DNA of 64,000 nt from Fibrobacterota bacterium (GCA_043753995.1 JAYUVP010000077.1:55-64054); one strand, 5' to 3'. Shown: positions 19,896-54,069, counted from the stretch's first letter. Notes: generated by a model not told the origin, from the letters alone. Translations and numbers: made by a program.

Positions 19896-20032
19896 ATGTC
19901 AAAGCATCGCGAGACCCGGGGCAACCCGAATCACGGCAGCAATACCCTCATCGTCAAGGTGCTTGAGGGTTCTTCGCTTGCTTTGGTTTCGCGCTATCAT
20001 GGGCAGGATGCAGTAGGTGCATTCACTTTTCT

Positions 20033-40508: not shown

Positions 40509-40907
40509 TTACTTCTTGGCCAAGGTGCGAATATAGGCCACGACGCCTTTGATTTCATCCGGTTTCAAAGTGGTACCCCAAGGGGACATCAGGGGGGACA
40601 AATTATTGGCGGCGCCACCTTCCACCACAACCTTGGTCAATACCGAATCCGTGCGGCCCGTCATATAGGCTGCATCGGTGAAATTACGCGGCTTGGGATT
40701 CAAGGCCGCTGCGGCCACACCGTCACCTGCTCCGCTGGCACCATGACAGCTGACACAATACATCTCATAGGCCTTTTTGCCTTTTTCTAATTCGGCCTTG
40801 GAAACCGCCGGCTTTGCGGCCTTGGCTTTTGCCGCCGGTTTCTTTTCCGAGGCAAAGGACAAGCCAATCGCCAAAGTGGCGATGATTGCAATCAGTTTTT
40901 TATTCAT
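40509..40907 (-). CDS. class I c-type cytochrome
   Basis: CVSCH heme motif. Signal peptide. ATG at 40907 preceded by AAAGGAG. Confidence 0.7.
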   Translation of the reverse strand: MNKKLIAIIATLAIGLSFASEKKPAAKAKAAKPAVSKAELEKGKKAYEMYCVSCHGASGAGDGVAAAALNPKPRNFTDAAYMTGRTDSVLTKVVVEGGAANNLSPLMSPWGTTLKPDEIKGVVAYIRTLAKK

Positions 40908-40969
40908 CCGAACTCCTTTTCGTCTTTGACGATTTTGCTTCACTCAGGACCCTTTGAAAACGTAGTCGC

Positions 40970-43900
40970 TTAACCCACATGGAAATTTCCGCTTTGCTGC
41001 CAATAATTCATGGCATCGGCAAGATTGTCGCCCTCAATTTGAGTTTGACCCAGGGATTTTGCGCGCTTTTCAATTTCCTTCATGACTATACCCCGAATAA
41101 AGGAAGGGATTTTCATGGCTCGTGCCATGGCCTCTTCACTCCAGGGCATGGTCACCACCTGCTTGGCGCTGCCATCTCCCCAACTTTCATATTTATCCCC
41201 CATCACGGAAAAATCCACATTCACTTGGCCATGGGCTCGCGCCCATTTTTCCACGCGAAGACGAGTCATTTCTCGCATAAATCCTTCGGGTACGCGCTGC
41301 AAGCGAGATAAAGCGTCTTCATTCCAATACAGCATTTGCGTAGCGGAGGCGGAAGCCGCGTGGCGTTTTTCTGGGGAGAGGGCCATGAAAACCGATTTAC
41401 CGCAATTGGGGCAAGCATGGGGTTTCTCACCATCGAGGACAAGGCCACAAAGATGGCATTCCCAATGCACCGAGGCCTCAGCAATCTTTTCGGTTTCGTG
41501 TGGCTTGGCTTCGCCTAGGCCCTTGGAGGCCATGGCCTCACGCATGATTTCTCGCGCCTGGCCTAAACCCGCCTCGATGATTTCGAGGGTCACCGTGCCA
41601 AGTCCGCCTTGACGAGCATGCTTTTCAATGGTGCTCTTGGCGGCATGACGCATGAAGCCAGCAGGGACTTTTTCCAAACGCTGTAGCGCGGTCTCGGTCC
41701 AAAGCAATTCACCGATCGTGGTGGCGGGAGCCGGGGCGGCAGTAGGTGCAGGGGCGGCCATTGCCGAGGTTGCGGAATTCGATCCGAAGTGAGACACACC
41801 CAGCGCGGCTTCAACTCTTTCCAAGGTGACGCTGGACTGATGGTCGGCCATGGCTCGCTTCTCGATGCGATTGCGCAATTGCTGACGCTCAAAGGCATCA
41901 CTGACTTGGTCCAGCCTCCCCAAGGCTTGAGGGTCCCAACGAAGCTGACGCTCGCCCAAGGTATTCTGGGTTTCGCCAGTAGCCCCCGGAGCATCGCCCA
42001 TCAATTTGAATAGTGTTCCATCACGCCCACAAACCGGGCAGCTTTGGGGACGCAGGTTTTGATGCACATAACCGCATATGGGACAGCGATAGCTGAGAGA
42101 AATGGTGTCGAGATTGGCAGACTCGGCTTTTTGCTTGGCTTCCAAATTGAGCCCCATGCGCGCCAAGGCTTCGGCGGGCAAAATGGCCTTGAGGGCGGCA
42201 TGCAATATCGCCTCACTGACCACGGTATGGCCTTCGGCAATGCAATAATTCGCGATGGCCTTCATAGCCATAGGCCTCGCCATGGCAGGAACACCCTCCA
42301 GTTTGGCCTTGGCCTCGACCGTCCAAGCCACGGTCTCTTCGGCTTGAAATTCCACTGGAGGCTTGGCCTTGGACTCGGTCACCAAAACATTGAAACCGCA
42401 TTGACGCAAAATATTTTCGGTATTGCTGCCTAGGTCCATGCCTTCTTCGCTATGAAATCCGGTTCGCCCAAGCACCACCAACCAAGGCTGTAGGCTCTCG
42501 GTGAATTGCAGGATTTTTTCGAAAGGCTTGCCGTCCAGCAGGCGAGTCTCCACGGTGAGGTTTTCGCGTTCGGCGAGCCGCGCTGCGATATTCAGATAGC
42601 TCTGATAAATTTTAGCGAGGCCCGAATCGATAATGTCCTCATGCAGCTTTTCCTGCTCTTCGAACTTGAAAACCTTTCGGGCTTTATCGGTTAACGCGGT
42701 ATTCAAGCTCTTGAACATGGCATAGTGAAAATAAGGATCGAATGCGGACACCGCAATAATGCGCTTGCCGAAAGCTTTGGCGAGGGCAAAGGCACGGTAC
42801 AATCCACCCCAACTGCGCTCGCTACCGTCTAAACAAACAACGATTGCGTCGCCATGATTTTCTTCCTCGGTCCGCTTGACCACGAGAAAATCGCGGGCCA
42901 CGCGGCGCAAGGTGCGCTCGGTCACGGATCCCAATTGCGAACGCCCCACGCGGCCAATGCCGAAGCCTCCGAAGGCGATTAAGTCATGCGAATGGCCATT
43001 GATGTCCTCGACCAGCTTTTGCCAGTTTTTTCCTTCAAGGGAAACGGGTACATAGCTCAGGCCTTCGCGCGCACAGGCTTTGGCCATGACTTCCAAATAG
43101 GAATCCGTGATGAGTTCCAACCCTTTAGTGATCAAGCTATCGTGAATTTTCCTTTGCTTCTCCAATTCCTGCTCTTGCTGATATTCTGGAGGCAAACCAC
43201 CTTCCATGGCACGGAAGCGATTGTCATGCATTTTCGCGGCATAGACATGGCTGCCATGCAATTTCGCGTCGAAGACCTGGCCCATTTTCACCGCGATTTC
43301 CGTTGCGGCATTTGCCAAGGGCGAGGAATCGAGCCCGACATAAACGCTACGATAGCGCGTCAAATCGACTGCTTCACCCTGTGAGTTCGAGGGCGAAGGG
43401 GATGGAGTAGGGGTCGCTGGCTTTGAAGAATGATCGGCCAAGGGAGTCGGCGCGCCTCCATGCTTCGCATCTTCATCAGGACCCTGGCGTTCCATCACTT
43501 CACGAGCTTCTCGCACCACTTGCTGGGTGATGCGTTTGAAGTCGCGACGGCGCGCATATTTTTCAATTTGCTCGGTGATGAATTGACGAATCATGCCGGG
43601 AGCGCGATTCACCGACTCCATGGCATCGGCATCCCATTCCAAACCGCCATGGCTGGGTAAATGCACGATATTGTTCGTTTTTTCAGGGACACGGAAAGGC
43701 GTTTTGTCCTGAACTTGATTTACCCAAAGGATATAGGCATGAGGAAATTCATGCTGCGCAATATGAAAGCTATCGAATTCGAACATGGTCCGCGCCAAAC
43801 GAATGAATTCATGGCGAGGATCTTCAGGGCCAATGACTTCCACGACGGTATCGACTTGAAAACTCATATAGTCCGGGGCATTCCCCGTATAATGTAAGGA

Positions 43901-44413
43901 CGCCACCGGATTGCGACGCAAATTCTGATAGGTGGTGCGCTCGAATATTTCCAAAGTCGTCAAGGCACGATAATCAATCACATCACGACGAAAATAAAAT
44001 TTGGAAACCGCCTGAATACGCTCAGCTAGCGATTCTTGCCAGGGGCGGCCCTTGGTTTTTTCCATGATGCCGCGAAAGAGGTGAATATAATGCTGCAAAT
44101 ATTGGGGCTTGGGAATGAGACCCACGCCTTTATTTGAACAGTTGAAAGGGAAATCCTTGCTTTCATTGAAGGTCACCATGACCGGTAAATGCGAGGCGTG
44201 GAAAAGGGGGGCGCCTTTCAGCAATAATTTATCGTAAACACCGCGACGCCCTTGCTCTAGCCAGGCAATGACATTTTCAGGCAAGGGCATCAAGGGCAAT
44301 TCACGCTCCCCCCCGAGTAATGGCGCGGTCACGGTATTCTCACCGACTCGAACTTGCGGCTGGGGCAAGGCCCCCCTTTCAGTATCCGTCCAAGGCAATT
44401 TCTGCGCGCTCAT
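40970..44413 (-). CDS. 1147-aa multidomain protein: N-terminal domain of unknown fold, tandem universal-stress-protein-like domains, two rubredoxin-like zinc ribbons and about five PCP_red-like repeats
   Basis: Zinc ribbons CPICGYV..CPVCG and CHLCGLV..CPNCG. Repeated W(T/N/S).EA..RL.R.P.F.R......E..A...G motif recurs at least four times. Confidence 0.5.
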   Translation of the reverse strand: MSAQKLPWTDTERGALPQPQVRVGENTVTAPLLGGERELPLMPLPENVIAWLEQGRRGVYDKLLLKGAPLFHASHLPVMVTFNESKDFPFNCSNKGVGLIPKPQYLQHYIHLFRGIMEKTKGRPWQESLAERIQAVSKFYFRRDVIDYRALTTLEIFERTTYQNLRRNPVASLHYTGNAPDYMSFQVDTVVEVIGPEDPRHEFIRLARTMFEFDSFHIAQHEFPHAYILWVNQVQDKTPFRVPEKTNNIVHLPSHGGLEWDADAMESVNRAPGMIRQFITEQIEKYARRRDFKRITQQVVREAREVMERQGPDEDAKHGGAPTPLADHSSKPATPTPSPSPSNSQGEAVDLTRYRSVYVGLDSSPLANAATEIAVKMGQVFDAKLHGSHVYAAKMHDNRFRAMEGGLPPEYQQEQELEKQRKIHDSLITKGLELITDSYLEVMAKACAREGLSYVPVSLEGKNWQKLVEDINGHSHDLIAFGGFGIGRVGRSQLGSVTERTLRRVARDFLVVKRTEEENHGDAIVVCLDGSERSWGGLYRAFALAKAFGKRIIAVSAFDPYFHYAMFKSLNTALTDKARKVFKFEEQEKLHEDIIDSGLAKIYQSYLNIAARLAERENLTVETRLLDGKPFEKILQFTESLQPWLVVLGRTGFHSEEGMDLGSNTENILRQCGFNVLVTESKAKPPVEFQAEETVAWTVEAKAKLEGVPAMARPMAMKAIANYCIAEGHTVVSEAILHAALKAILPAEALARMGLNLEAKQKAESANLDTISLSYRCPICGYVHQNLRPQSCPVCGRDGTLFKLMGDAPGATGETQNTLGERQLRWDPQALGRLDQVSDAFERQQLRNRIEKRAMADHQSSVTLERVEAALGVSHFGSNSATSAMAAPAPTAAPAPATTIGELLWTETALQRLEKVPAGFMRHAAKSTIEKHARQGGLGTVTLEIIEAGLGQAREIMREAMASKGLGEAKPHETEKIAEASVHWECHLCGLVLDGEKPHACPNCGKSVFMALSPEKRHAASASATQMLYWNEDALSRLQRVPEGFMREMTRLRVEKWARAHGQVNVDFSVMGDKYESWGDGSAKQVVTMPWSEEAMARAMKIPSFIRGIVMKEIEKRAKSLGQTQIEGDNLADAMNYWQQSGNFHVG

Positions 44414-45768
44414 GAAGCACTCCGATGAATTTGATTTTCCATATTGACTTTAGCGTTTGGCTTGGGCATGTCGGCGCGCAGCGAGCCGAGCATGGCGCGA
44501 ACAAAGGCGGGAGGTTCGGATCCGGCGTCAAAGCCCAGGCCGTATTTGGCTTGGGACTCAGCGCGATGCCTTTCCATCATAGCCACCGTGATGGGTGCTC
44601 TTTCCCGCTTGGACCTTTCTTCGAGGCGTTTTCTTACCAGTGATCGAATAAATAGAGGCAAGCGTTTGAGGCGTTCCTGCGCTTCCTGAGTCCACATCGC
44701 CTCGAATTCCCCTGCCTCTCGCAGCGGCTGAATCACAATTCCACCCTTAGGCTGATAATCGCAATTGGGATCTTCTCCCATCAGTACGCCGGTTTGCGCA
44801 AGCGCGCGGGCTCGACATCCCCCGCAAAGCAATTTGTATTCGCAGGCACCGCAACGTCCTTGCAATAGTTCCGGCTTGCGAAAGCTTTGGAACAAAACCG
44901 ATTCATCCCAGACTTTCCAAAAACCTTCGCGCAACAAATGCCCGCCGGATAATTCCATATACGGGCAGGGAGTGATATCCCCTTCCGGAGTGATGCGTGC
45001 ATAATGCGTCGCCGCGGGACAGCCGCCGCCATCATAACCTTCGGCGCGCGTGAAAGACGATTGCGCATCGGCTTCATAGAGTATGCGCTTGAAATGCGGA
45101 GTGCATCGGCTTTGCACCATGAGGCCAGGCATTTCCTTCTGAATGCGCACGATGCGCATCAAGGCTTGTTCGTACTCAGCTGGCTCCAAATCCAAGGCGG
45201 GATTGCCACGGCCCACACAAACCAAGAAAAAGAAATTCACCAAGGAAGCGCCGAGGTCTTTCGCCATCAAGGCGACATCTTCCATCTCGCCATGATTGTG
45301 GCGTGTGACCGTGAAATGCACTTGGGCATGCACGCCATGCTTGGCACAAAGACGAATCGACTCGCAAGTCTTTTCAAAAGCACCCGTGACGCCACGAAAG
45401 GCATCATGCCCCGCGGGATGGGAAGCATCCAGGGAAATTCCGGCGCCTTGCAAGCCGGCCTCTTTCAAAGCGAGCAAGCGTTCTTCATTCAGCAAAAGGC
45501 CATTGGTGCCGAGGACCATGCGCAAACCCGCTTGCGAACCCGCAGAGACAAGCCGAACAAGGTCATAGCGCAGCAAAGGCTCACCACCGGTGAGGACCAC
45601 CATGGTGCCTGGCGCCCTTTCGGCCAAGGAAAGGAAGAATCGCTCCCAATCCTCAGTCGATAATTCCCCGGATCGCGTCGCCATACGCGAATTCGCGTCG
45701 AGATAACAATGGTGGCATGCCAGATTGCATCGTCGCGTAAGGTTGGCCGCCACCAAATAAGGCAACAT
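44410..45768 (-). CDS. radical SAM enzyme with SPASM-type auxiliary cluster domain and C-terminal PCP_red-like tail
   Basis: CNLACHHC (CxxxCxxC). Additional Cys clusters (CGACEYKLLCGGC). C-terminal WTQEAQERLKRLPLFIRSLVRKRLEE matches the repeat of the downstream giant protein. Confidence 0.7.
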   Translation of the reverse strand: MLPYLVAANLTRRCNLACHHCYLDANSRMATRSGELSTEDWERFFLSLAERAPGTMVVLTGGEPLLRYDLVRLVSAGSQAGLRMVLGTNGLLLNEERLLALKEAGLQGAGISLDASHPAGHDAFRGVTGAFEKTCESIRLCAKHGVHAQVHFTVTRHNHGEMEDVALMAKDLGASLVNFFFLVCVGRGNPALDLEPAEYEQALMRIVRIQKEMPGLMVQSRCTPHFKRILYEADAQSSFTRAEGYDGGGCPAATHYARITPEGDITPCPYMELSGGHLLREGFWKVWDESVLFQSFRKPELLQGRCGACEYKLLCGGCRARALAQTGVLMGEDPNCDYQPKGGIVIQPLREAGEFEAMWTQEAQERLKRLPLFIRSLVRKRLEERSKRERAPITVAMMERHRAESQAKYGLGFDAGSEPPAFVRAMLGSLRADMPKPNAKVNMENQIHRSAS

Positions 45769-45770: not shown

Positions 45771-46919
45771 TTAGAAATACACCTGCACGCGTCCCACGAT
45801 TTGATCCTGGTTGTCGCCGCCGACTTGAGGCTCGAAATCGTTGATGCGGTAATACAAGCCTAGTTGCACAAATTGCACGGGATAAGGCTCGACTCCTACG
45901 GTGATACGTCGCCGCCCATTATGCTCTTGCGCCCTTTTGTCGGGGGTCATCCACTCGAATACCCCCTTGAAGTTGAGGCCGCGCATGGGCAGACAATCCA
46001 CCTCGGCATAGTCCGCGATCATGTTAACGCCTTTCTTTTGAATCAGGTCACGCTCCCCAAAGACGGTGAACATGCCCATGGCGAAACCGCCGAATACACC
46101 CATGCTTGTGTTTTTAGCTCGTCTCTCCTTTACCTTGACCGGCAAGCTATAAGATCCGCCAAGGCGGAAGGTCCGCAATGCTATGGGCATTTCGCTGAAG
46201 ATGACCGATCCCACCGAGGAAATCAAATTGTCATTGGCATTGACGATGAGGGAAAGCGGGCCGGGTTCGATGCCGACTTCATAACTCATTCCGGTAGTAT
46301 TATAGGTATAGCCTGTATACTTACGCACGAAGGCTTCATCGTCCATAAGGCGAATGCCATAAGGCAATAGCATTTTACCCGCTTTGGCATAGGAATTCCA
46401 AAAGGGACTTTGCACCATGCCCCACATTTCACGCATAGCACCCGATAAGGCGCCTTGATCATAATAGAAGGTGAGAAAATCCTTTACTAAATCCACCTGA
46501 AAATAAAAGTTGGATTCTTTCACCGGAGCGGAAACAAAATCCGAGGAATAGGTTTGGGCCGAATCACCCACATTCACTGGCTTGGTTGTATAGGCCTGAG
46601 TGAAAGTCGGTTCGACGCGAAAGTTTGCGCCTACGGAAACCGAATTGGATAAGTTGGGATCAAAGCTATAAGCCTGCTTCTGGCTCTGCGCTGATTTCAT
46701 GAGCAATTGATATTGGGAGTAAATGACTCCGTATTCCGTGCGCTTGCCGCCACCGGTGCGATTGACATGGCATTGACTGCATTTGAAGCCGGTGCGCATG
46801 GCGAAATAGGGTTCGGCACTGACATTCCACGCCGCCGCCAAAACCCATCCGACGAGCCAAAACCAAACAGGACGCATTTTTTTCCCTCTCGATTTATGAA
46901 TGCCCATGCCCATATTCAT
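45771..46919 (-). CDS. exported protein with single CxxCH heme motif and beta-barrel-like C-terminus (possible outer-membrane heme protein)
   Basis: Signal peptide. CSQCH about 25 residues after the signal. Alternating hydrophobic pattern. C-terminal ..RVQVYF. Confidence 0.4.
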   Translation of the reverse strand: MNMGMGIHKSRGKKMRPVWFWLVGWVLAAAWNVSAEPYFAMRTGFKCSQCHVNRTGGGKRTEYGVIYSQYQLLMKSAQSQKQAYSFDPNLSNSVSVGANFRVEPTFTQAYTTKPVNVGDSAQTYSSDFVSAPVKESNFYFQVDLVKDFLTFYYDQGALSGAMREMWGMVQSPFWNSYAKAGKMLLPYGIRLMDDEAFVRKYTGYTYNTTGMSYEVGIEPGPLSLIVNANDNLISSVGSVIFSEMPIALRTFRLGGSYSLPVKVKERRAKNTSMGVFGGFAMGMFTVFGERDLIQKKGVNMIADYAEVDCLPMRGLNFKGVFEWMTPDKRAQEHNGRRRITVGVEPYPVQFVQLGLYYRINDFEPQVGGDNQDQIVGRVQVYF

Positions 46920-47542
46920 GGCAAGGCTCCTGCATTGATCCAGTTCTTAATCAATTCAATCTTATCGGCTTTAAGTGGGGCCCGTAATTGCGGCATTCGA
47001 ACCCCATCACCCGGAGGTTCTGCCATAGAAATTTTCAAATACATAAAGCTACTGTCCGCCTTACCTGGGACCACTCGCATGTAATTGGCAGTCTTGCTTC
47101 CCGTGGACCGTACATTTACCAAGTTGACATAGGCGGAATCGGGTATCAAAAACAATTTTGTCGAGGCTGCCGTACCGGTTGACTTGTGACATTCTTCACA
47201 GCTCGTTGTTATAATAGGCAGTATGTCTTTCGCGAAACTCGGCCCGGTCGGTGGAGTGCACCGGGCTGGTTTCACCGGAAGGGTGCAGGAATCGACGGCC
47301 ACCGTTGTGCATCTCGCGGGTTTGGTGGCCAAGGTGCAGGAATCGACAAGAACAATGCAACGGGCTGGTTTCACAGGCAGGGTGCAAGAATCCACAGGTG
47401 TCACCACCACTATAAGTGGTGCGCCATATTCATCAACTCCTATGCCGTCGCCCACCTTCATGCAAGCTACAAGACCTACTCCAATGATGAAGGACAAGGC
47501 CATCAGGACAATGGGCAATGCGCTCGTAGTATTGTTTTTCAC
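46916..47542 (-). CDS. PSCyt1-type (planctomycete-type) c-type cytochrome with three internal 16-17-aa repeats
   Basis: ILPIITTSCEECHKS ... VVPGKADSSFMYLKI ... LIKNWINAGA matches the PSCyt1 pattern. Repeats DSCTL(P/A)(V/T)KPARC occur three times. Confidence 0.55.
   Translation of the reverse strand: MKNNTTSALPIVLMALSFIIGVGLVACMKVGDGIGVDEYGAPLIVVVTPVDSCTLPVKPARCIVLVDSCTLATKPARCTTVAVDSCTLPVKPARCTPPTGPSFAKDILPIITTSCEECHKSTGTAASTKLFLIPDSAYVNLVNVRSTGSKTANYMRVVPGKADSSFMYLKISMAEPPGDGVRMPQLRAPLKADKIELIKNWINAGALP
47259..47395. repeat. three imperfect in-frame tandem repeats of about 48-51 bp inside the PSCyt1 cytochrome gene
   Basis: Units at 47259-47297, 47298-47347 and 47348-47395 share ggctggtttcac(c/a)gg(a/c)agggtgca(g/a)gaatc(g/c)ac. 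Each encodes VDSCTLPVKPARC-like peptides on the minus strand. Confidence 0.6.
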
Positions 47543-48492
47543 GGCGTCACCTCGGTGTTTTCAATGAATAGCCTTACAAGGAGGCTTCTGGGCTTTACCA
47601 GAGAATGCACATAATGCGCGAGCGCCCATTTTCGGCGTTCGGCCACAGCATTTTGCTGTTCCTCCCGCATGCGTGCGATGTCGGCGGAAGTGGGCTGAGC
47701 TCTTAACCAGGAACGCAATCGTTCGATTTCTTTTTCGCCATAAACTTCTTTCAACTTCATCGGATCCACTACGGCATCGCTGCCAATCAGAAAATCAGCA
47801 TGGGCATAGGCAGCCATCGGAGTGCCATTGAGTCCCGTGCTGAAAGTTCGATAAATCGATTTGGCATCATTTCCCGCACGGTAGCGTGCCTGGGTCATAT
47901 CGCGAGGAAGAATGGGGTGCCCCCAATCGTCCGTTAATGTTTTAGCGGTTTTCCCGTCGCCTTTTCCGGTACCGCCATGGCAAGACCAGCATTCCAATTT
48001 CATATAAACCATATGACCCTCTTGAATGGAAAGAGCTGTCGCAGGGGGAGCTTCGGGTATCCCCAAGGGTACGGGTGTCTCTTCAGCAAAGTCAGGCGAC
48101 AAAGACTTTATATAAGCCACGACATCGACTTTTTCTTGTTCGCTCAGCAAGTTCGCCCAAGCTGGCATTTGGGTGCCGGGAATGCCGAGATTCACCATGG
48201 CGAGCAAGTCGGCATCGGTCGGTAATTCTCCGCTGGCCGTGGTACGGAATTTGTAGACACCGGTGGTGAAATCCCGCGGCAAGGGCTTGAGATTCACTCC
48301 TGCGCTTCCTTGGCCATTTCCGAGATTGCCATGGCAGGCAGCGCAAGCTTTCAGATAAACCGGCAAACCGCGCGTCGCGGAGGCCGGAGCCAGCGGCTTC
48401 TGGACCTTGGGCGCGTCGCCCGCGAATGCCGCTGCGCCTAAGAAACAACCCAGGGTTGTCCAGGAGGCGATTGGCGAAAGACGAAATATCAC
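47539..48492 (-). CDS. membrane-anchored diheme c-type cytochrome
   Basis: CAACH and CWSCH motifs. Paralogous to the N-terminal part of the 49202-50716 protein. Confidence 0.7.
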   Translation of the reverse strand: MIFRLSPIASWTTLGCFLGAAAFAGDAPKVQKPLAPASATRGLPVYLKACAACHGNLGNGQGSAGVNLKPLPRDFTTGVYKFRTTASGELPTDADLLAMVNLGIPGTQMPAWANLLSEQEKVDVVAYIKSLSPDFAEETPVPLGIPEAPPATALSIQEGHMVYMKLECWSCHGGTGKGDGKTAKTLTDDWGHPILPRDMTQARYRAGNDAKSIYRTFSTGLNGTPMAAYAHADFLIGSDAVVDPMKLKEVYGEKEIERLRSWLRAQPTSADIARMREEQQNAVAERRKWALAHYVHSLVKPRSLLVRLFIENTEVTP

Positions 48493-48793: not shown

Positions 48794-49174
48794 TTATTCC
48801 TTCATGCCTTTATGTCGAGGAGCCAGAGTCCCTACATAGGCGGCGACATCCTTGATTTGATCGGGTGTCAAGGTGGCAACCTTCTTTTGCATGTCTACCG
48901 AAGTTTCAGTAGCGCGCTTTTTACTCGCGATGGCGGCAATTTGCTCGGCAGCATAGGCCGGGTCCAAGCCCGCGATTTGGGGTCCCTTTTGTTTATCCAA
49001 GGCATCTGGCTTAGCCTTACCCATGGCATCGGGATTGTGACAGGCGGCACAACCGGTTTTTTTGTAAACCTTAGCACCCTTGGTGACATCGCCGTCCGCA
49101 TGAACCGAGGCAGTCCAAGCGCCGATAAGCATGATAGCTGTGACAATGATTCTCGTTTTCATAGGTTTTCTCAT
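48794..49174 (-). CDS. class I c-type cytochrome
   Basis: CAACH motif. Signal peptide from MKTRIIVTAIML. Confidence 0.7.
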   Translation of the reverse strand: MRKPMKTRIIVTAIMLIGAWTASVHADGDVTKGAKVYKKTGCAACHNPDAMGKAKPDALDKQKGPQIAGLDPAYAAEQIAAIASKKRATETSVDMQKKVATLTPDQIKDVAAYVGTLAPRHKGMKE

Positions 49175-49201: not shown

Positions 49202-50716
49202 TTAAGAATTTCGGCGTAAGGTATGACGAAGGCCCCATACCACTAAAAGCTGAATCACCATGGCCAATGCTCCCGCCTTGGCGGTTGGCACCCATGGTGA
49301 TTCGGTGGCGGGAGCTTGTAGATAAAGATTATACCAGGACGTCACACCATGTTTGCGGCCCGTTTCTTTCAAGGAACCGTCCCATACCGAAAAGGCCATG
49401 GGAATAAAGGTTTCCCGCGCAAAACGCTCGCCGGTCTTTCCCTTGCGTGCATGCGTCAAAATCAAGGTCCATTCCCCTTGGTGATAGTTCGCGGCTATAG
49501 GCAAGGTATCGTCGCCTGCGCGAAAATCATTCGAGCCTTTCGCGATGAAATTACGAATGAAGCCCGAAGGCCCGCCACTCTGAGTTTGCGCCAAATCGAC
49601 AAACCACAAATCCGCAGCCAATTTTTTATCACCCATGAGGAAAAAAGGCTTGGCATTGCCCTCTATAGGCTTGGCTGCGAATTGCATGGCCACAGCATCA
49701 CTAATAGCTGTCGTGGTATCCACGGCAAGAGGAATGGGAGAATTGTTTCCCTGGGTTTCCGCCGTCATATCATGCCATTTCAGTTGAAAGGCAATGGTTA
49801 GACTGTCATAGACAGCCCGCACCTGAATGGCATTCACACCCGAAGCATAGCAGCGAGGATCTTCCAATACCTGGCCCACGACGGGGAATAAACTGGCGGT
49901 GGCTTCGACGAATAGAGAATCGCGCTGAGCCCAATCGATTTTGGCCACTGGCTTAGCAACAACGGTGATGGAATAGGGCGCCTGCGATCCCGTTGGGGAA
50001 AGCGACTGGAGGTAATCGATTAATTTCCAGCGATCCTCCACTGGAATATCTTTGGCGAAAGAAGCCATGGGGGTGCCATTGAGTCCAGTGGAAATAGTTC
50101 GGAAAAGATCTTCTCGCGAAGCGCCGCCGCGAAAAGCCCAGGGTTTATTGAGATTGGCCGGTCGAATGGGATATCCCCAATCGTCACTGAGGGTGGGAGC
50201 AGTTTCGCCATCCCCGCGCCCTTGTTGTCCATGGCAATCGAAGCATTTATTGGCCTCGAAAATTTTACGGCCCTCAGCCAAATTTGCGGAATTGAATTCA
50301 GGAATCTTGGGAATGACCAAGTGTTCGGCATGCACCGAAGTGTCGGCAAAATCCGAAGAGAAAGATTGTAAATAGGTCACAATATCTTCTACTTCATCGT
50401 CGGAAAATTGCGGCCAAGCCGGCATACCCGTATAAGGCATACCTTTCCGTATCACTCGCTTTAAATCTTCTCGCGTCGGCAATTCACCGCTGGGCGTGCT
50501 ATGAATCTTGTATATCCCCAGAGTGAAATCACGGGGCAAGGGCCGGAATCCGTCTGCGCCCACGCCTTTGCCGTCGCCGGTCTCACCATGGCATTGCGAG
50601 CACTTGCTATCATAAATCGCTTTGCCTCGATCCGATGGCGTGCCTTTCTGGGCTTGCACCAGTGACGTCGTGCCTACAATTCCAACGAAAAGCGAGAGGA
50701 AGGTTGCGATTTTCAT
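49202..50716 (-). CDS. diheme c-type cytochrome fused to a C-terminal EB_dh-like (heme-b-type) domain, with C-terminal TM anchor
   Basis: CSQCH and CFDCH motifs. About 250-aa C-terminal domain. Terminal hydrophobic helix. Confidence 0.55.
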   Translation of the reverse strand: MKIATFLSLFVGIVGTTSLVQAQKGTPSDRGKAIYDSKCSQCHGETGDGKGVGADGFRPLPRDFTLGIYKIHSTPSGELPTREDLKRVIRKGMPYTGMPAWPQFSDDEVEDIVTYLQSFSSDFADTSVHAEHLVIPKIPEFNSANLAEGRKIFEANKCFDCHGQQGRGDGETAPTLSDDWGYPIRPANLNKPWAFRGGASREDLFRTISTGLNGTPMASFAKDIPVEDRWKLIDYLQSLSPTGSQAPYSITVVAKPVAKIDWAQRDSLFVEATASLFPVVGQVLEDPRCYASGVNAIQVRAVYDSLTIAFQLKWHDMTAETQGNNSPIPLAVDTTTAISDAVAMQFAAKPIEGNAKPFFLMGDKKLAADLWFVDLAQTQSGGPSGFIRNFIAKGSNDFRAGDDTLPIAANYHQGEWTLILTHARKGKTGERFARETFIPMAFSVWDGSLKETGRKHGVTSWYNLYLQAPATESPWVPTAKAGALAMVIQLLVVWGLRHTLRRNS

Positions 50717-51525
50717 TCCACCTCCTCCATGGCACGCGGCTTTAAGCCGGTATAGTCATACAGAAAAAGAATGACATCCCACATTTCTCCTTCACTCAAT
50801 TTGTCTTCCCATGCCGGCATAGCGCTATTCCAAGGCGTGCTCTCATCGGGCAAGCCGGGACCTCCTTTGGCGATGCGCCAAAGCAAATAGGATTCCGTCA
50901 GCATGCCGATGGTGGCCGGATCATTCAAGTTAGCGGGAATGGGATCGAAACCATGGCCATGCAGACCATCGCCTCGTAAATCATCGCCGTGACAGAAAAC
51001 ACAATTGCGATAATAAACGCCACGGCCATTCTCCACATGCTTTGAGAAAGCGCCTTTGTCCTTGCTTTCCAATTCACGATAGGGATTGTGATCGCGCATA
51101 ATATCGATTTTATGTCCCCGCACTGTAATTTCTTGCGGTGGGGCAGGATGGATGGTGCGCCCGGCAGCAGGCGGTACAATTTCCGCCGTTTTTTGCTCAT
51201 ACACCGACCAAGCCTGAGAGGCAGGGAATAAAAGCAATAGGAAGACGAGAAGGGGAATCCACCGCTTTTCCAATAAAAGGGAAGCCATGCCTTGTTTGCT
51301 GCTTTGCGCCCGTGCTTTGTCCGAGGCGGCATAGAGCAATAAAGCGACCGTGAGAACGCCCATATACATGCCGCGTATCGAAGCCGGAATCGGAGGCACT
51401 ACGCCCCATTTGATCATCACCAAAAAGCCAATCCAGAAGGCCGCCAGCCATATCAAAATATTGGCACGGGTAAATCGCAATGCGAAGAGGCCAAGGCTTA
51501 CGCCTCCGATGACCCATAAATTCAT
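50713..51525 (-). CDS. polytopic membrane protein with C-terminal c-type cytochrome domain
   Basis: About 4 N-terminal TM helices, then CVFCH. Confidence 0.55.
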   Translation of the reverse strand: MNLWVIGGVSLGLFALRFTRANILIWLAAFWIGFLVMIKWGVVPPIPASIRGMYMGVLTVALLLYAASDKARAQSSKQGMASLLLEKRWIPLLVFLLLLFPASQAWSVYEQKTAEIVPPAAGRTIHPAPPQEITVRGHKIDIMRDHNPYRELESKDKGAFSKHVENGRGVYYRNCVFCHGDDLRGDGLHGHGFDPIPANLNDPATIGMLTESYLLWRIAKGGPGLPDESTPWNSAMPAWEDKLSEGEMWDVILFLYDYTGLKPRAMEEVE

Positions 51526-51532: not shown

Positions 51533-52033
51533 TCATGGCTTGGCCCCGCTCAAGGACGCGGTCTGGTATTTCAATTGGGTTTTCATATTGACGGTCGCAC
51601 TTCCACCCAAACTCTGCAAATAGGCGATGACGCAAAGAATTTCTGCATCGCTGAGCCCAACGGGTGGCTTATTGATGGTGGGCATACCTGCACTAAAGCC
51701 CGACACGAGAAAAATATTGGGCTCATAAAGGCTTTCCGCCAAATAATCCACATCACTATAACCCGGCTTGCGATGCTTGGCCGTCTCTCCCACACCCGCC
51801 AAATCTGGAAAACGTAAGGATCCGGAGGCGCCGAGAGTGTGGCATGCCATGCAGGTTCCCTTGCCTCCGACGATTTCTTGTCCGGCCGCCACCATTTCCT
51901 CAACACCCATGTCGGGATTCAGTACGCGCTCTTTAGGAGGATGCACTTCGGCTTGTGGCACCATATGCCCGACATAGGTGTAAAAAGCGGTGACCAGTAA
52001 GGTGAATAAAGCGAGTTGAATAGCGTTTTTCAT
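51533..52033 (-). CDS. membrane-anchored c-type cytochrome
   Basis: N-terminal TM. CMACH motif. Confidence 0.65.
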   Translation of the reverse strand: MKNAIQLALFTLLVTAFYTYVGHMVPQAEVHPPKERVLNPDMGVEEMVAAGQEIVGGKGTCMACHTLGASGSLRFPDLAGVGETAKHRKPGYSDVDYLAESLYEPNIFLVSGFSAGMPTINKPPVGLSDAEILCVIAYLQSLGGSATVNMKTQLKYQTASLSGAKP

Positions 52034-54069
52034 TTGTGGCCATGCTTGGGCGAATGCGAATGTTTACCGCTAAGGCTGGAAAGCCAGAACACGATGGCAA
52101 TGATGGCGAAAAAGATGAGCACGGTCACGGAAACAACATTGGCTGCATAGCCCAAAGTCGGGGTGAAGGCCTCGGGGGAGGTGTCCTTCATGACGCCGTA
52201 AACGTGCCAATGCTGACGAATGCCGGAGCGCACATAGCCCATCAAACCCATGAGCCATGTGAAACTGATGGCGATCAAGAAAAGGGCGTATTGTGCAATC
52301 GCCGGCATTTTCCCCCATCGTATTTCGCCGGTTACCTTGGCTCGCTTAAACATAAAGACATCAATTATCGTGACGGAAATCATGGCGAATAAAACCGCGA
52401 AGACCTGGGGCACGGAAAGCTTGATACGCACCGCGGCCTCGACGAAATAGCCATAGACACCGAGGGCGATAACCCAAAGCGTGGTGACAGAGAAAATCAG
52501 GAATTGAATGCGATCGCCGAGTTTCGCCCAGGAGACCGTAGCTTGAATATTACCTCGACGATAAAGCAGAAAGCTGATATAGGTGGTGAGGATGAGGATA
52601 TTCACCGCCGTGTTTTTGGCCGACATCACTCCTAATACGCCCAGCATGGGATGATGTGCGCCACCCATTTTACGGGCCTCTTCCACCGTGGCCACCAGGC
52701 TATGCGGAGTCGCCCAAACCAAAAAGCAAATTGTGATCACACCCAGCAAGTATTTAATGAAAGGCTGAAAACGCTCCGCTCCCTGGATGCGCCCCATACC
52801 CAGCCACAAATAAAAGTTGGCGCCGAGAAAAAGCACGCCGATGAGTATGGCTTGAATGATGAAGAGCCAGGAAAAGGCTCCGCCCATGAGGGTCATGCCC
52901 ATATTTTGGGAATAGGCATACATCTCCTTGCCAAGCCAATAGCCCGCAAAGGGAAGCGGTAGAAAGGAAGCGATGGCGACGAAATTGCCGATATAGCCCA
53001 TCCAATCGTAGTGAGCCTTTTCTGCTTCGGTTTTGGCGCCCAAAAATTTGAAGGCTGCATAGGCGGAGGCAATGGATCCACCGAAGGCGACATTGGCTAT
53101 CATGCGATGCACATTGATAGGCATCCAAATGAAGTTGTGAATGGCATCCCAACGGCTCACCAAGGCGCCGGATTCGGTAACGCCATTGGGTGACATCATA
53201 AAGGTGAGCCAGGCATCGGCGATGAACATGATGCCCAAACCGACGACATTCAGGCCGAGACCAAGCATCAAATGCACGCCTGGCCGAAATTTTCCCCAGC
53301 CATAGTAATAGCTGTAGAGAAAAATCGCTTCCAGGAAAAACAAACCGACATAAGGGAGAAAGGTCATATCGAAAATACCGACCAAATAATTCATGACCTT
53401 GGGATAAAGGAGAAAAAGCAGGAAGGTGAGGCCGGCGCCTAGTGAAGCGGTGAAGGAAAAACTTGTCGATAATAGCTTGGTGAATTCATAGGCGAGATCG
53501 TCGTAACGCGTGTCCTTGGTGCGATAGCCGATGAATTCAATGATCAGGGCAAATAGAGGTACGGCCAAAACAAAGGCGGCAAACATCAAATGCAATTGCG
53601 CGAATATCCATACGATGACGCGGCTATTGATTCCAGGTAGTTTCCGATATTCCGGCGTTTCTCCAGGTGCGGTGCCGGCGATGATCTTGGGTGGCTCTTC
53701 GCCCGGTTTAGGCTTATGCGCTTCCAGGATCCAAGTAACGATGACGCGAATATCTTCGTCCGAAAGGGTCGGATGGGGAATCATGGGCATGGAGCCCCAG
53801 GCCCCGCCACCCCCCTCTTTCACTTTTTTGCACAAGGCAGGAATATCCGCCGTGACGTATTTGCCCGCGATAGCTTTGAAGGAAGGACCTACGAGTTGCT
53901 TATCGGCGGTATGACAGGCAATGCAATCGCTTTTCTGCATAGCGGGTGGAGGAGGAAGCAACCCAGGCTCGGCAAAGCCCGGTCCCGCTAAGACCAGAAC
54001 AAGGAGCCAAAACAAGACACCGGCGTAAGCATGCACTCCAAAGCTGCGGCGAATAAAACTCATTGCCAA
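52030..54069 (-). CDS. c-type cytochrome domain fused to a cytochrome bd-type oxidase subunit I (CydA)-like membrane protein
   Basis: N-terminal CIACH. The membrane part aligns by eye with E. coli CydA at helix 1 (QLHLMF vs MYHF), FLEAIFLYSYYYGW vs FLESTFVGLFFFGW, and HLMLG..W..MMSPNG vs HMCV..W..MQNP. Confidence 0.6.
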   Translation of the reverse strand: MAMSFIRRSFGVHAYAGVLFWLLVLVLAGPGFAEPGLLPPPPAMQKSDCIACHTADKQLVGPSFKAIAGKYVTADIPALCKKVKEGGGGAWGSMPMIPHPTLSDEDIRVIVTWILEAHKPKPGEEPPKIIAGTAPGETPEYRKLPGINSRVIVWIFAQLHLMFAAFVLAVPLFALIIEFIGYRTKDTRYDDLAYEFTKLLSTSFSFTASLGAGLTFLLFLLYPKVMNYLVGIFDMTFLPYVGLFFLEAIFLYSYYYGWGKFRPGVHLMLGLGLNVVGLGIMFIADAWLTFMMSPNGVTESGALVSRWDAIHNFIWMPINVHRMIANVAFGGSIASAYAAFKFLGAKTEAEKAHYDWMGYIGNFVAIASFLPLPFAGYWLGKEMYAYSQNMGMTLMGGAFSWLFIIQAILIGVLFLGANFYLWLGMGRIQGAERFQPFIKYLLGVITICFLVWATPHSLVATVEEARKMGGAHHPMLGVLGVMSAKNTAVNILILTTYISFLLYRRGNIQATVSWAKLGDRIQFLIFSVTTLWVIALGVYGYFVEAAVRIKLSVPQVFAVLFAMISVTIIDVFMFKRAKVTGEIRWGKMPAIAQYALFLIAISFTWLMGLMGYVRSGIRQHWHVYGVMKDTSPEAFTPTLGYAANVVSVTVLIFFAIIAIVFWLSSLSGKHSHSPKHGHK

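What the first reader, a model, noticed from the sequence alone, without database searches (positions are those of the whole stretch)
52030..54069. Cytochrome c fused to a CydA-like bd-oxidase subunit, with no CydB gene adjacent
- An N-terminal periplasmic CIACH heme-c domain is fused to a membrane domain that aligns by eye with E. coli CydA landmarks.
- The downstream genes are c-type cytochromes, not cydB.
- The protein has an odd number of TM helices (CydA-like 9 plus the leader).
- Divergent bd-family members lacking CydB have been reported in the literature.
- This locus looks like such a cytochrome-c-oxidising bd-like enzyme with its own electron-donor cytochromes.
Basis: partly seen in the sequence, partly recalled or inferred. 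Interest (0 to 1): 0.6.

Follow-up and report, generated by a model that had tools for sequence, protein, structure and literature searches.

The report
Cytochrome-c-fused bd-like (OR-N2) oxidase operon
The gene is real and encodes a cytochrome c domain fused to a membrane protein related to subunit I of cytochrome bd oxidase, but it belongs to an already described, never purified family of "bd-like" oxidases (OR-N2) that work with c-type cytochromes instead of quinol and CydB.

Summary
Window 52030-54069 (-) encodes a 677/679-aa protein. It has a signal peptide, a class-I c551/c552-type heme c domain (CIACH, Met96), a Pro-rich linker and a CydA-like membrane domain. No cydB lies in the 64-kb window or in 86 related loci.

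Two details were wrong. The membrane domain has 13 helices, not 9. The Q-loop with its quinol-binding residues is replaced by extra helices.

The protein fits the published OR-N2 subfamily of "bd-like" oxidases (Murali et al. 2021; NIDE0901-like in Nitrospira). Every OR-N2 signature residue in that paper's table is present, apart from three minor columns that differ or went unchecked. The spacing downstream of the His186 equivalent is identical. It is 40% identical over its full length to a Nitrospirota OR-N2 protein. Its operon is the typical one: two membrane c-cytochromes plus a diheme-c/EbdC-like heme b subunit.

The most likely function is a cytochrome-c-fed terminal oxidase. The chemistry is untested for the whole family.

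Three things are new:
- The N-terminal c551 fusion is so far seen mainly in Fibrobacterota.
- A Cyc2-like cytochrome-porin cassette is inserted in this operon.
- An AhbD/NirJ-like radical SAM gene and a PCP_red/USP gene are linked to these operons across phyla. I found no paper reporting this.

Verdict: a new variant of a known kind, of moderate interest.

The parts
52030..54069 (-). g1: fused cytochrome c551/c552 plus CydA-like (OR-N2-type) membrane subunit. It is 679 aa from the TTG, or 677 aa from the ATG at 54063, which is the start on record.
53971..54069 (-). N-terminal signal peptide or membrane anchor (residues 1-33, ...AGPGFA/EP). Unfused homologues have an uncleaved-looking anchor helix here, which is the 14th TM.
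   Evidence: cleavage is inferred
53719..53946 (-). Periplasmic class-I monoheme cytochrome c domain (residues 42-117). CIACH lies at 53911-53925; the axial ligand is Met96.
53626..53718 (-). Pro/Gly-rich linker (residues 118-148), low pLDDT.
52072..53625 (-). 13-helix CydA-like membrane domain (residues 149-666). Key residues with E. coli equivalents: His160 (His19), Tyr240 (Glu99 position), Glu247 (Glu107), Tyr254/Tyr256, His266 (His126), His321 (His186), Met482/Asn486, Ser615 (Glu445 position), and R618-Q-H-W621 (the GRQPW loop).
51533..52033 (-). g2: membrane-anchored monoheme cytochrome c (166 aa). It overlaps the g1 stop by 4 nt. It is diheme (about 270 aa) in the unfused lineages.
50713..51525 (-). 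g3: about 4 TM helices plus a monoheme cytochrome c (270 aa).
49202..50716 (-). g4: signal peptide, diheme cytochrome c, an EbdC/NxrC-like (EB_dh) heme b domain and a C-terminal TM anchor (504 aa).
48794..49174 (-). g5: small soluble monoheme cytochrome c (126 aa). No homologue was found in the related loci.
47539..48492 (-). g6: periplasmic diheme cytochrome c (317 aa). It is the first gene of the g6-g7-g8 cassette that only the Fibrobacterota operons carry.
46916..47542 (-). g7: putative lipoprotein with three DSCTLxxKPARC repeats and one CxxCH (SO2930-like heme domain), 208 aa.
45771..46919 (-). g8: Cyc2-like fused monoheme cytochrome-porin (382 aa). It has a signal peptide, then AEPYFAMRTGFKCSQCH, then an OprP/OprO-like beta-barrel.
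44410..45768 (-). g9: AhbD/NirJ-family radical SAM/SPASM enzyme with a C-terminal PCP_red domain (452 aa). It scores below the equivalog cut-offs for AhbD and NirJ.
40970..44413 (-). g10: 1147-aa protein with six PCP_red repeats, two USP domains and rubredoxin-like zinc ribbons.
40509..40943 (-). g11: exported monoheme cytochrome c (144 aa), the last gene of the operon.
40466..40486 (-). Terminator-like GC hairpin followed by a T run. Probable end of the operon.
   Evidence: consensus match only

Best explanation
g1 is the catalytic subunit of an OR-N2-type 'cytochrome bd-like' terminal oxidase complex. The complex takes electrons from c-type cytochromes in the periplasm, not from quinol, and works without CydB.

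Shown:
- A Sec-exported c551/c552-type heme c domain is tethered by a flexible linker to a 13-helix CydA-like domain.
- That domain keeps the His19 equivalent (axial ligand of the O2-reactive heme in bd oxidases), the Glu107 and His126 proton-path residues, and the His186 ligand of the low-spin heme b.
- It has lost the Q-loop quinol site and the Glu445 ligand.
- The gene is translationally coupled to two membrane-anchored cytochromes c (g2, g3) and a diheme-c/EbdC-like heme b subunit (g4). This four-gene core is conserved in 61 of 62 related loci.

Inferred:
- Electrons pass from periplasmic cytochromes through the c and b hemes of g4, g3, g2 and the fused c551 domain to the low-spin heme b at His321. 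They then reach the high-spin heme at His160, where O2 is reduced to water.
- Protons come from the cytoplasm via Glu247/His266, so a proton motive force arises by charge separation.
- In this Fibrobacterota-like genome the upstream donor is probably the co-transcribed Cyc2-like outer-membrane cytochrome-porin g8 with g5-g7 and g11 (extracellular Fe(II) or a similar donor). In about a third of other lineages Alternative Complex III sits directly upstream and would feed quinol electrons.
- g9 and g10 are probably cytoplasmic tetrapyrrole-handling or maturation factors for the complex.
For: CydA homology:
- Pfam PF01654 at E=5.7e-20.
- The ten best Foldseek PDB hits are all CydA chains at probability 1.0.
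- A family profile hits PDB CydA chains down to E=1e-18.
- hhalign places His160 on His19, Glu247 on Glu107 and His266 on His126. HMMER alignments place His321 on His186.

OR-N2 signature from Murali et al., Table S6:
- Tyr at the Glu99 position, Glu107 kept, Tyr/Tyr, His126, His186, and S/A at Glu445.
- These positions are invariant in 68 homologues, and position 615 is Ser 37 / Ala 31.
- Offsets from the His186 equivalent to Met, Asn, Ser and Trp (+161, +165, +294, +300) are identical to the reference.
- 40% identity over residues 147-661 to a Nitrospirota/Manganitrophaceae protein with the same offsets.

Operon:
[quoted passage not shown] That matches g2-g4.
- The core is conserved in 61 of 62 loci.
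- No CydB is found anywhere.

Respiratory context:
- ActB of ACIII (E=2.4e-265 to 6f0k_B) lies upstream on the same strand in about 25 of 80 loci.
- aa3-type COX genes lie upstream in about 10 loci.

Literature: the homologous cluster is among the 40 most highly transcribed genes in Nitrospira, and a sister TO_1 complex sits at the 98th expression percentile in Ca. Manganitrophus.
Against: - No OR-N enzyme has been purified or assayed. Oxygen reduction, heme types and subunit composition are all unproven.
- The Glu445 ligand is missing and the Met393 equivalent is uncertain, so the heme complement may differ from bd.
- Homologous clusters occur in strictly anaerobic anammox bacteria, and a role in reverse electron flow has been proposed for them.
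- In Nitrospira and Nitrospina a partner OR-N1 subunit is postulated. None is encoded here.
- In one related Fibrobacterota locus the neighbours are NnrS and nos genes.
- My model has moderate confidence (pLDDT 77.7). I could not read its coordinates to check heme-pocket geometry.
Confidence: 0.6

Rival explanations
1. The complex is not an O2 reductase. It is a nitrogen-oxide enzyme (NO reductase or detoxifier), or a cytochrome-c-linked module serving denitrification.
For: - In the Fibrobacteres MAG locus L001 the operon sits next to NnrS and a nosZ/nosD/nosF/nosY cluster.
- The diheme part of g4 is homologous (E=1.6e-48) to PDB 6h5l_B, annotated there only as a conserved hypothetical cytochrome protein. 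From memory, not checked here, this is a Kuenenia stuttgartiensis NO-binding cytochrome c complex.
- Canonical bd oxidases bind and turn over NO.
- Homologous clusters exist in anaerobic anammox bacteria.
Against: - The nos/NnrS adjacency was seen in one lineage only. Across 80 loci the recurrent upstream neighbours are ACIII and aa3-type oxidase genes.
- The window itself has no N-oxide genes near the operon.
- The retained His19, Glu107 and His126 set is the O2-site and proton-path set of bd oxidases.
Confidence: 0.12
2. The complex is an electron-transfer or 'alternative complex III-like' module. [quoted passage not shown]
For: - Lücker et al. 2013 and Mundinger et al. 2019 raise this for the homologous bd-like + alt-NxrC + two cytochrome c cluster.
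- Four extra helices with conserved polar residues could host a new quinone site.
- In some loci an aa3 oxidase is already encoded next door, which would make a second oxidase redundant.
Against: - All known quinol-binding residues and the Q-loop are absent.
- ACIII directly upstream in about 25 loci already supplies the quinol:cytochrome c link, and that arrangement classically precedes an oxidase.
- The active-site His and the proton-path residues are invariant.
Confidence: 0.15
3. It is a canonical quinol-oxidising cytochrome bd subunit I, as automatic annotation says ('cytochrome ubiquinol oxidase subunit I'), that merely acquired a cytochrome c domain. CydB would be encoded elsewhere.
For: Database names. 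Pfam PF01654 passes its gathering threshold.
Against: - Only profile positions 2-245 of 418 match.
- 13 helices, not 9.
- Glu99 and Glu445 are replaced, and there is no Lys252/Glu257 Q-loop.
- No CydB is found in 86 loci.
- The fixed partners are cytochromes c.
Confidence: 0.03
4. It is a member of the OR-C family, which is the bd-like family defined by heme c in subunit I.
For: [quoted passage not shown]
- Murali's phylum table lists OR-C, not OR-N, for Fibrobacterota, KSB1 and Calditrichota.
Against: - OR-C1a has 8 helices, a C-terminal heme c extension, Glu at both Glu99 and Glu107, Phe at His186, and an adjacent OR-C1b paralogue.
- Here the heme c domain is N-terminal, there are 13 helices, Tyr sits at Glu99, His186 is kept, and no paralogue is present.
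- Most close homologues (72-77% identity) lack the heme c domain entirely.
Confidence: 0.05

Closest known systems
OR-N2 subfamily of the cytochrome bd superfamily (Murali, Gennis & Hemp 2021). This equals the NIDE0901-like 'cytochrome bd-like oxidase' of Nitrospira, Nitrospina and anammox, and the bd-like clade I / TO_1 complex of Ca. Manganitrophus.
   Same: - 14-helix architecture (13 plus an N-terminal helix).
- His19, Glu107, His126 and His186 equivalents kept. Tyr at Glu99, S/A at Glu445.
- Identical spacing of the C-terminal signature residues.
- No Q-loop and no CydB.
- Operon with two membrane cytochromes c and an EbdC/NxrC-like heme b subunit.
- 40% full-length identity to a Nitrospirota member.
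   Different: - An N-terminal c551/c552 heme c domain is fused to subunit I, mainly in Fibrobacterota.
- No NXR genes and no OR-N1 partner are nearby.
- The heme b subunit carries two fused c-heme domains.
- The operon also holds a Cyc2-like cytochrome-porin cassette and radical SAM/PCP_red genes.
- The lineage is FCB-group, Acidobacteriota and others, not Nitrospirota.
Canonical cytochrome bd quinol oxidase CydAB(X) (E. coli bd-I, PDB 6RKO; Geobacillus, PDB 5DOQ)
   Same: - The fold of TM1-6 and of the last two helices.
- His19, His186, Glu107 and His126.
- The RQxW periplasmic loop.
- N-terminus in the periplasm.
   Different: - No CydB or CydX.
- No Q-loop or Lys252/Glu257.
- Glu99 and Glu445 are replaced.
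- Four extra helices.
- The electron donor is cytochrome c, not quinol.
OR-C1a/b bd-like oxidases (for example in Desulfovibrio and Calditrichota)
   Same: A bd-superfamily subunit I with covalent heme c and no quinol site. Cytochrome c is the presumed donor.
   Different: In OR-C the heme c domain(s) are C-terminal, and there can be up to 8 of them. OR-C has 8 helices, Phe at His186, both channel glutamates, and is paired with a paralogous 'b' subunit.
Cyc2 fused cytochrome-porin Fe(II) oxidase pathway (Keffer et al. 2021). This comparison applies to g8 only.
   Same: - Signal peptide and a single CXXCH near the N-terminus.
- An OprP/OprO-like 16-strand barrel.
- Length of at least 365 aa.
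- Motif AxPxFA..T upstream of the heme site.
- Co-encoded periplasmic cytochromes and a terminal oxidase.
   Different: - The diagnostic FAR[Q/K][T/Y] reads FAMRT (family consensus IAVRT).
- There is no PXL motif after CXXCH.
- It was not scored with the FeGenie HMMs.
- No iron-oxidation phenotype is known for Fibrobacterota.

Membership tests
Cytochrome bd superfamily, subunit I (CydA fold) | Sequence and fold homology to CydA, with the His19-equivalent heme ligand in TM1 | tested here: met
   Pfam PF01654 at E=5.7e-20. The ten best Foldseek hits are CydA chains at probability 1.0. hhalign places His160 on His19. The residue is invariant in 68 of 68 sequences.
Canonical quinol-oxidising cytochrome bd (qOR) | Q-loop with the quinol-binding residues Lys252 and Glu257 | tested here: not met
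   Only about 30 residues (368-397) separate TM6 from the next helix. No alignment to the Q-loop appears. By eye the positions fall on Gly391 and Gly396. The literature says the same for bd-like oxidases.
Canonical quinol-oxidising cytochrome bd (qOR) | Partner subunit CydB encoded with CydA | tested here: not met
   E. coli CydB gives no hit in the window (E<=10) or in 86 related loci. No PF02322 appears in the precomputed Pfam of neighbours. The rest of the genome could not be searched.
Canonical quinol-oxidising cytochrome bd (qOR) | Heme b595/d ligand Glu445 and channel residue Glu99 | tested here: not met
   The Glu445 position is Ser615 (S 37 / A 31). The Glu99 position is Pro239 or Tyr240, depending on register.
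Canonical quinol-oxidising cytochrome bd (qOR) | Heme b558 ligands His186 and Met393 | tested here: inconclusive
   His321 aligns with His186 and is invariant. For Met393, Met482 matches Murali's M430 by spacing, and Met395 sits at the periplasmic start of the helix after TM6. Both are invariant. No coordinates were available to decide between them.
OR-N2 (Murali et al. 2021) | Signature residues: His19 eq., Tyr at Glu99, Glu107, Tyr/Tyr at Phe114/116, His126, His186, M/N pair, S/A at Glu445, Trp +6 | tested here: met
   The residues are His160, Tyr240, Glu247, Tyr254/256, His266, His321, Met482/Asn486, Ser615 and Trp621. All except position 615 are invariant, or 67/68 for Trp621, in 68 sequences. 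Offsets from the His186 equivalent (+161, +165, +294, +300) equal those of the reference. Leu273 also matches the table's Leu at Ser140. The Asn148 column differs (Asp/Asn here, Ile in the reference), and the Leu71/Glu74 columns were not checked.
OR-N2 (Murali et al. 2021) | 14 transmembrane helices | tested here: met
   13 helices lie in the membrane domain, plus the N-terminal hydrophobic helix. Unfused homologues have an N-terminal anchor helix. Whether the helix is cleaved in the fused form is unknown.
OR-N2 (Murali et al. 2021) | Operon with multiple cytochromes c and an EbdC (EB_dh gamma) homologue. Often no second cydA-like gene. | tested here: met
   g2, g3 and g4. TIGR03477 at E=9.7e-13 and PF09459 at E=1.9e-9 on g4. 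Conserved in 61 of 62 loci. No second CydA-like ORF is present.
OR-N2 (Murali et al. 2021) | Close sequence relationship to Nitrospirota OR-N2 proteins | tested here: met
   40% identity and E=3e-140 over residues 147-661 to P0272 (Nitrospira sp. / Ca. Manganitrophaceae), which has the reference spacing.
OR-N2 (Murali et al. 2021) | Oxygen reductase activity with cytochrome c as donor | not testable with these tools
   Never measured for any OR-N enzyme.
OR-C (Murali et al. 2021) | 8 helices, a C-terminal heme c extension, Glu99 and Glu107 both kept, no His186, an adjacent OR-C1b paralogue | tested here: not met
   13 helices, an N-terminal heme c domain, Tyr240, His321 present, and no paralogue.
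Cyc2 fused cytochrome-porin (g8 only) | Signal peptide, single CXXCH, length of at least 365 aa, 16-strand porin resembling OprO/OprP | tested here: met
   382 aa with one CxxCH. The AF2 barrel spans 94-381 at pLDDT about 85-95. The top Foldseek hits are OprP 2o4v and OprO 4rjw, the same templates as in Keffer et al..
Cyc2 fused cytochrome-porin (g8 only) | AXPXFAR[Q/K][T/Y] motif upstream of CXXCH, and PXL downstream | tested here: inconclusive
   g8 reads AEPYFAMRT-GFK-CSQCH, and the family consensus is AEPYIAVRT. A, P, F/I, A and T match. The Arg is shifted by one position. No PXL follows. The FeGenie HMMs were not available.

The most novel reading that the evidence does not exclude
OR-N2-type bd-like oxidases depend on a dedicated cytoplasmic tetrapyrrole-modifying system. 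That system would be the AhbD/NirJ-family radical SAM enzyme with a PCP_red domain (g9) and the multi-PCP_red/USP/rubredoxin protein (g10). It would make or deliver a specialised heme for the active site.

The linkage holds in Fibrobacterota, KSB1, Calditrichia, Rhodothermales, Acidobacteriota, SAR324 and Endoriftia-like Gammaproteobacteria. When I searched from g9 instead of from the oxidase, both genomic contexts I sampled again contained a bd-like operon.

In this genome the whole operon would then form a self-contained route: an outer-membrane Cyc2-like cytochrome-porin, periplasmic cytochromes, a c551-fused bd-like oxidase, and that oxidase's own cofactor factory.
Probability: 0.3. Interest if true: 0.7.

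Novelty: new variant of a known kind. Interest (0 to 1): 0.42.

Why it matters
**A widespread, untested enzyme.** The bd-like (OR-N) oxidases are the presumed terminal oxidases of Nitrospira, Nitrospina and the manganese oxidiser Ca. Manganitrophus, yet none has been characterised biochemically. This locus shows that the OR-N2 four-gene core is far more widespread than those nitrifiers. At least 598 species genomes carry it, in Fibrobacterota, Calditrichia, Rhodothermales, Acidobacteriota, Myxococcota and others. It is also unusually conserved, at 63-77% identity across phyla.

**Support for the cytochrome c donor.** The Fibrobacterota form has a c551-type domain covalently tethered to the catalytic subunit. 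This is independent genetic support for the cytochrome-c-donor hypothesis. It may also be a convenient, self-contained construct for heterologous expression.

**A new lead on heme supply.** The recurrent radical SAM/PCP_red partners give a concrete, testable lead on how these enzymes get their heme cofactors. I found no paper mentioning this linkage.

**A possible iron-oxidation link.** The Cyc2-like cassette hints at extracellular electron uptake in a phylum not known for it.

Tried and rejected
- **Canonical CydAB.** Rejected: no Q-loop, no Glu445, no CydB.
- **OR-C membership.** Rejected on helix count, position of the heme c domain, and the residues at Glu99 and His186.
- **Simple domain swap.** I asked whether the fused c551 domain is a domain moved from g2. 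In the window and in L001, g2 has lost its second heme domain. But the fused homologue in L006 keeps a diheme g2, so the exchange is not strict.
- **g9 as the housekeeping heme synthase AhbD.** It scores 278 bits against a cut-off of 500 for TIGR04545 and 256 against 500 for NirJ2. It travels with the oxidase operon, so I treat it as a paralogue of unknown substrate.
- **E. coli CydA with phmmer.** It does not detect g1 at all (E=0.31). Profile methods are needed.
- **Source genome.** The contig look-up for the exact product returned no record name. The Fibrobacterota assignment rests on the nearest named homologues.
- **Crude gene calling.** The ORF calling used for neighbour clustering over-extends ORFs in high-GC loci, so cluster counts are approximate.
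- **Promoters.** The scan gave no more sites than in shuffled sequence.
Full report
**1. The observation**

The ORF at 52030..54069 on the minus strand is real. A gene product of exactly 677 aa, starting at the ATG at 54063, is on record in public assemblies. Residue numbers below use the 679-aa TTG version.

The N-terminus is a hydrophobic signal-like helix (residues 11-27 in the model, ...AGPGFA/EP). A class-I monoheme cytochrome c domain follows.
- PDB cytochrome c552 from Hydrogenophilus (2d0s) matches residues 47-116 at E=5.8e-23.
- Foldseek superposes this domain at TM 0.88 and 52% identity.
- CIACH is encoded at 53911-53925.
- Cys49, Cys52, His53 and the axial Met96 are conserved in all 26 homologues that carry the domain.

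A Pro/Gly-rich linker (residues 118-148) of low model confidence leads into the membrane domain.

**2. The membrane domain is CydA-like but not a canonical CydA**

Homology to CydA is well supported.
- Pfam Cyt_bd_oxida_I matches residues 149-392 at E=5.7e-20. It covers only profile positions 2-245 of 418.
- An AlphaFold2 model built on 68 homologues has pLDDT 77.7 and pTM 0.73. It shows 13 transmembrane helices between residues 149 and 666. A hydropathy scan is consistent with a many-helix domain of this size.
- The ten best Foldseek hits in the PDB are all CydA chains (E. coli bd-I and bd-II, Mycobacterium, Corynebacterium, Geobacillus) at probability 1.00. CydB chains score about five to six orders of magnitude worse.

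Residue equivalences come from the sequence alignments.
- His160 aligns with His19, Glu247 with Glu107 and His266 with His126 (hhalign against E. coli CydA).
- His321 aligns with His186.
- The Glu99 position is Pro239 in the E. coli register, or Tyr240 in the Geobacillus register.
- The C-terminal pair of helices carries R618-Q-H-W621. This aligns weakly with the GRQPW loop between CydA TM8 and TM9. That register places Ser615 at the Glu445 position.
- Between TM6 and the next helix lie only about 30 residues, so nothing aligns to the Q-loop or to Lys252/Glu257.

The architecture is 13 helices plus an N-terminal helix. Four extra helices are inserted between CydA-equivalent TM6 and TM8.

The Met393 equivalent is not settled. 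Met482 fits by spacing and Met395 fits by position, and both are invariant.

**3. No CydB**

- E. coli CydB finds nothing in the window, even at E<=10 with filters off.
- It finds nothing in any of 86 related loci.
- The precomputed Pfam lists for neighbours in five loci contain no CydB family.
- Apart from g1, only one other ORF in the 64-kb window has three or more strong hydrophobic segments. It is an AcrB-type pump.
- No second CydA-like gene is present.

**4. What surrounds it**

The genes from 54069 down to about 40466 lie on one strand. Several stop/start overlaps occur (g1/g2, g3/g4, g6/g7, g7/g8, g9/g10), and a terminator-like hairpin follows the last gene. In order:
- g2: anchored monoheme cytochrome c.
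- g3: about four helices plus a monoheme cytochrome c.
- g4: diheme cytochrome c fused to an EbdC/NxrC-like heme b domain, with a C-terminal anchor. PF09459 scores E=1.9e-9 and TIGR03477 scores E=9.7e-13.
- g5 and g6: soluble mono- and diheme cytochromes.
- g7: a lipoprotein-like protein with one CxxCH.
- g8: a 382-aa protein with no family hit.
- g9: a radical SAM/SPASM enzyme of the AhbD/NirJ family with a PCP_red domain.
- g10: 1147 aa, with six PCP_red repeats, two USP domains and rubredoxin-like ribbons.
- g11: another cytochrome c.

**5. Relatives**

The protein search returned more than 7000 homologues.
- Forms with the fused cytochrome c (70-88% identity) come from Fibrobacterota MAGs.
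- Unfused forms of 580-620 aa, at 72-77% identity, come from KSB1, Krumholzibacteria, Calditrichia and Rhodothermia.

A scan of one genome per species found at least 598 species with a relative. These also include Acidobacteriota (Thermoanaerobaculia, Vicinamibacterales, Holophagales) and Myxococcota, at 63-77% identity. In these loci:
- g2-g3-g4 follow g1 in 61 of 62 cases with enough downstream sequence.
- A g10-like gene follows in 48 of 51 cases, and a g9-like gene in 35 of 51.
- About 25 loci carry ActB of Alternative Complex III upstream on the same strand (E=2.4e-265 to Rhodothermus ACIII 6f0k_B), with a small cytochrome c.
- About 10 loci carry aa3-type COX1/COX2 upstream.

ACIII operons are classically followed by an oxygen reductase (stated).

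g5 has no homologue in the related loci. g6, g7 and g8 occur only in the Fibrobacterota operons.

In the window and in L001, g2 is monoheme. In unfused lineages it is diheme. One fused homologue (L006) keeps the diheme form, so the fusion does not simply replace a lost domain.

**6. Comparison with what is known**

Murali, Gennis and Hemp (bioRxiv 10.1101/2021.01.16.426971; ISME J 2021) divide the bd superfamily into qOR, OR-C and OR-N.
- They describe OR-N2 as having 14 helices and often no second cydA-like gene.
[quoted passage not shown] They suggest cytochrome c as the donor.
- Their Table S6 gives the OR-N2 signature: H99, Y183, E190, Y197, Y199, H213, H269, M430/N434, S563 (S/A) and W569.

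The window protein has His160, Tyr240, Glu247, Tyr254, Tyr256, His266, His321, Met482/Asn486, Ser615 and Trp621.
- These are invariant (Trp621 67 of 68) across 68 homologues, and position 615 is Ser 37 / Ala 31.
- Leu273 matches the table's Leu at Ser140. The Asn148 column differs (Asp/Asn here, Ile in the reference), and I did not check the Leu71/Glu74 columns.
- The offsets from the His186 equivalent (+161, +165, +294, +300) are identical to the reference.
- A Nitrospira / Ca. Manganitrophaceae protein found among the representatives (P0272) has the same offsets. It is 40% identical to the window protein over residues 147-661.

Earlier descriptions fit as well.
- Lücker et al. 2013 (PMC3578206) describe 14 helices, a well-aligning N-terminal part with conserved heme b ligands, membrane helices in place of the Q-loop, and no quinol residues.
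- The TO_1 complex of Ca. [quoted passage not shown] I therefore file the protein under OR-N2.

It is not OR-C. That family has 8 helices, C-terminal heme c, both channel glutamates, Phe at His186 and a paired paralogue.

The fused heme c does mean the protein meets the verbal definition of OR-C. Murali's phylum table also lists OR-C, not OR-N, for Fibrobacterota, KSB1 and Calditrichota. I could not resolve whether their classifier met this clade.

**7. Mechanism**

Shown: the domain architecture, the retained and lost residues, the absence of CydB, the fixed cytochrome partners, and the respiratory gene context.

Inferred:
- The electron path runs from periplasmic cytochromes, through the hemes of g4, g3, g2 and the tethered c551 domain, to the low-spin heme b at His321, and then to the high-spin heme at His160.
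- O2 is reduced there, and protons enter through Glu247/His266.

No OR-N enzyme has been assayed. Homologous clusters exist in anaerobic anammox bacteria. A reverse-electron-flow role and an NO-related role therefore remain open.

A cluster of nearly invariant periplasmic histidines (His456, 472, 473, 620, 622) may correspond to the putative copper site. attributes that proposal to Lücker et al. 2010, for one Nitrospira bd-like oxidase. This link is conjecture.

**8. Beyond the finding**

*g8.* Its model is a beta-barrel (residues 94-381, high confidence) behind a low-confidence heme-binding N-terminus. Its best structural matches are OprP (2o4v) and OprO (4rjw). Keffer et al. reported the same templates for the porin of the Fe(II) oxidase Cyc2.

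It meets the architectural criteria for Cyc2. Its motif AEPYFAMRT...CSQCH only partly matches AXPXFAR[Q/K][T/Y], and PXL is absent.

Its family has 276 proteins, all annotated 'hypothetical'. Elsewhere it occurs in a cassette of cytochrome c, diheme cytochrome c, a protein of about 160 aa, and the porin, with no bd-like gene within the 10 kb fetched on each side. In this lineage the cassette has apparently been inserted into the oxidase operon. That suggests an extracellular electron source.

*g9 and g10.* Searching from g9 rather than from the oxidase recovered the same linkage. A bd-like operon again lies beside the g9 and g10 homologues in a contig carrying a protein also found in Ca. Endoriftia (Gammaproteobacteria) and in SAR324.

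No paper in the searchable library contains both 'bd-like' and 'radical SAM'. PCP_red is the C-terminal domain of the DPOR BchB subunit. From general knowledge, not checked here, AhbD, AhbC and NirJ act on heme-type tetrapyrrole side chains. A cofactor-maturation role is thus a reasonable but untested idea.

**9. Verdict**

The finding is correct in substance, and the literature already explains it as a kind: an OR-N2 bd-like oxidase module. What is new is a variant, namely the N-terminal c551 fusion in Fibrobacterota. The operon context is also richer than previously described. Interest is moderate, at 0.42.

Noticed in passing
window 45771-46919 (-): g8 is a 382-aa protein with a signal peptide, AEPYFAMRTGFKCSQCH, and an OprP/OprO-like beta-barrel. 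This is the Cyc2-like fused cytochrome-porin architecture, but the motif match is only partial. Its family has 276 proteins, all annotated 'hypothetical', mostly from Fibrobacterota. It lies inside the oxidase operon.
   Followed up: partly
window 40970-45768 (-); also L003, L006, L011, L090, L091 and others: An AhbD/NirJ-family radical SAM enzyme with a PCP_red domain, and a large PCP_red/USP/rubredoxin protein, are linked to OR-N2-like operons across at least seven phyla. An Mrp/NUBPL P-loop ATPase (23 loci), a 131-aa unknown protein (21 loci) and a 156-aa PCP_red/zinc-ribbon protein (19 loci) recur downstream. I found no paper mentioning this.
   Followed up: partly
L032 1931-4948 and about 25 other loci; L005 4722-8739; L041 5866-7608: In many Acidobacteriota and Rhodothermales genomes, Alternative Complex III (ActB confirmed) or an aa3-type oxidase cluster sits directly upstream of the bd-like operon on the same strand.
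   Followed up: partly
L091 1-9955: A SAR324 contig carries two tandem copies of the four-gene bd-like module. They are followed by the radical SAM, PCP_red, USP/PCP_red and HEAT-repeat genes.
   Followed up: no
window 49202-50716 (-): g4 combines two Sec/Ccm-dependent c-heme domains with an EbdC-like heme b domain in one exported polypeptide. The heme b would have to be loaded in the periplasm. Its diheme part is homologous to PDB 6h5l_B (E=1.6e-48).
   Followed up: no
window 46916-47542 (-): g7 is a lipoprotein-like protein with three near-identical Cys-flanked repeats (DSCTLPVKPARC / DSCTLATKPARC) ahead of a single CxxCH domain. It has no Pfam match.
   Followed up: no
window about 1-20000: A Mu-like prophage. 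It includes a terminase large subunit (5301-6701), a Mu portal (6711-8288), a Mu F-like protein (8291-9829), a capsid E-like protein (2099-3022), a MuA-type transposase (13892-15952) and a MuB-like AAA protein (15968-16960).
   Followed up: partly
window 24610-29130 (-): A single 1506-aa ORF joins a complete AcrB-type RND pump (residues 26-1028) to an outer-membrane efflux protein (OEP/TolC-like) domain (residues 1087-1282). An inner-membrane/outer-membrane fusion is topologically odd. It could also be a missed stop or frameshift.
   Followed up: no
window 54386-56167 (-): The gene upstream of the operon encodes a MoeA-type molybdopterin molybdenumtransferase with an N-terminal GGACT (gamma-glutamyl cyclotransferase-like) domain, according to the precomputed Pfam list. 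No molybdoenzyme is encoded nearby.
   Followed up: no
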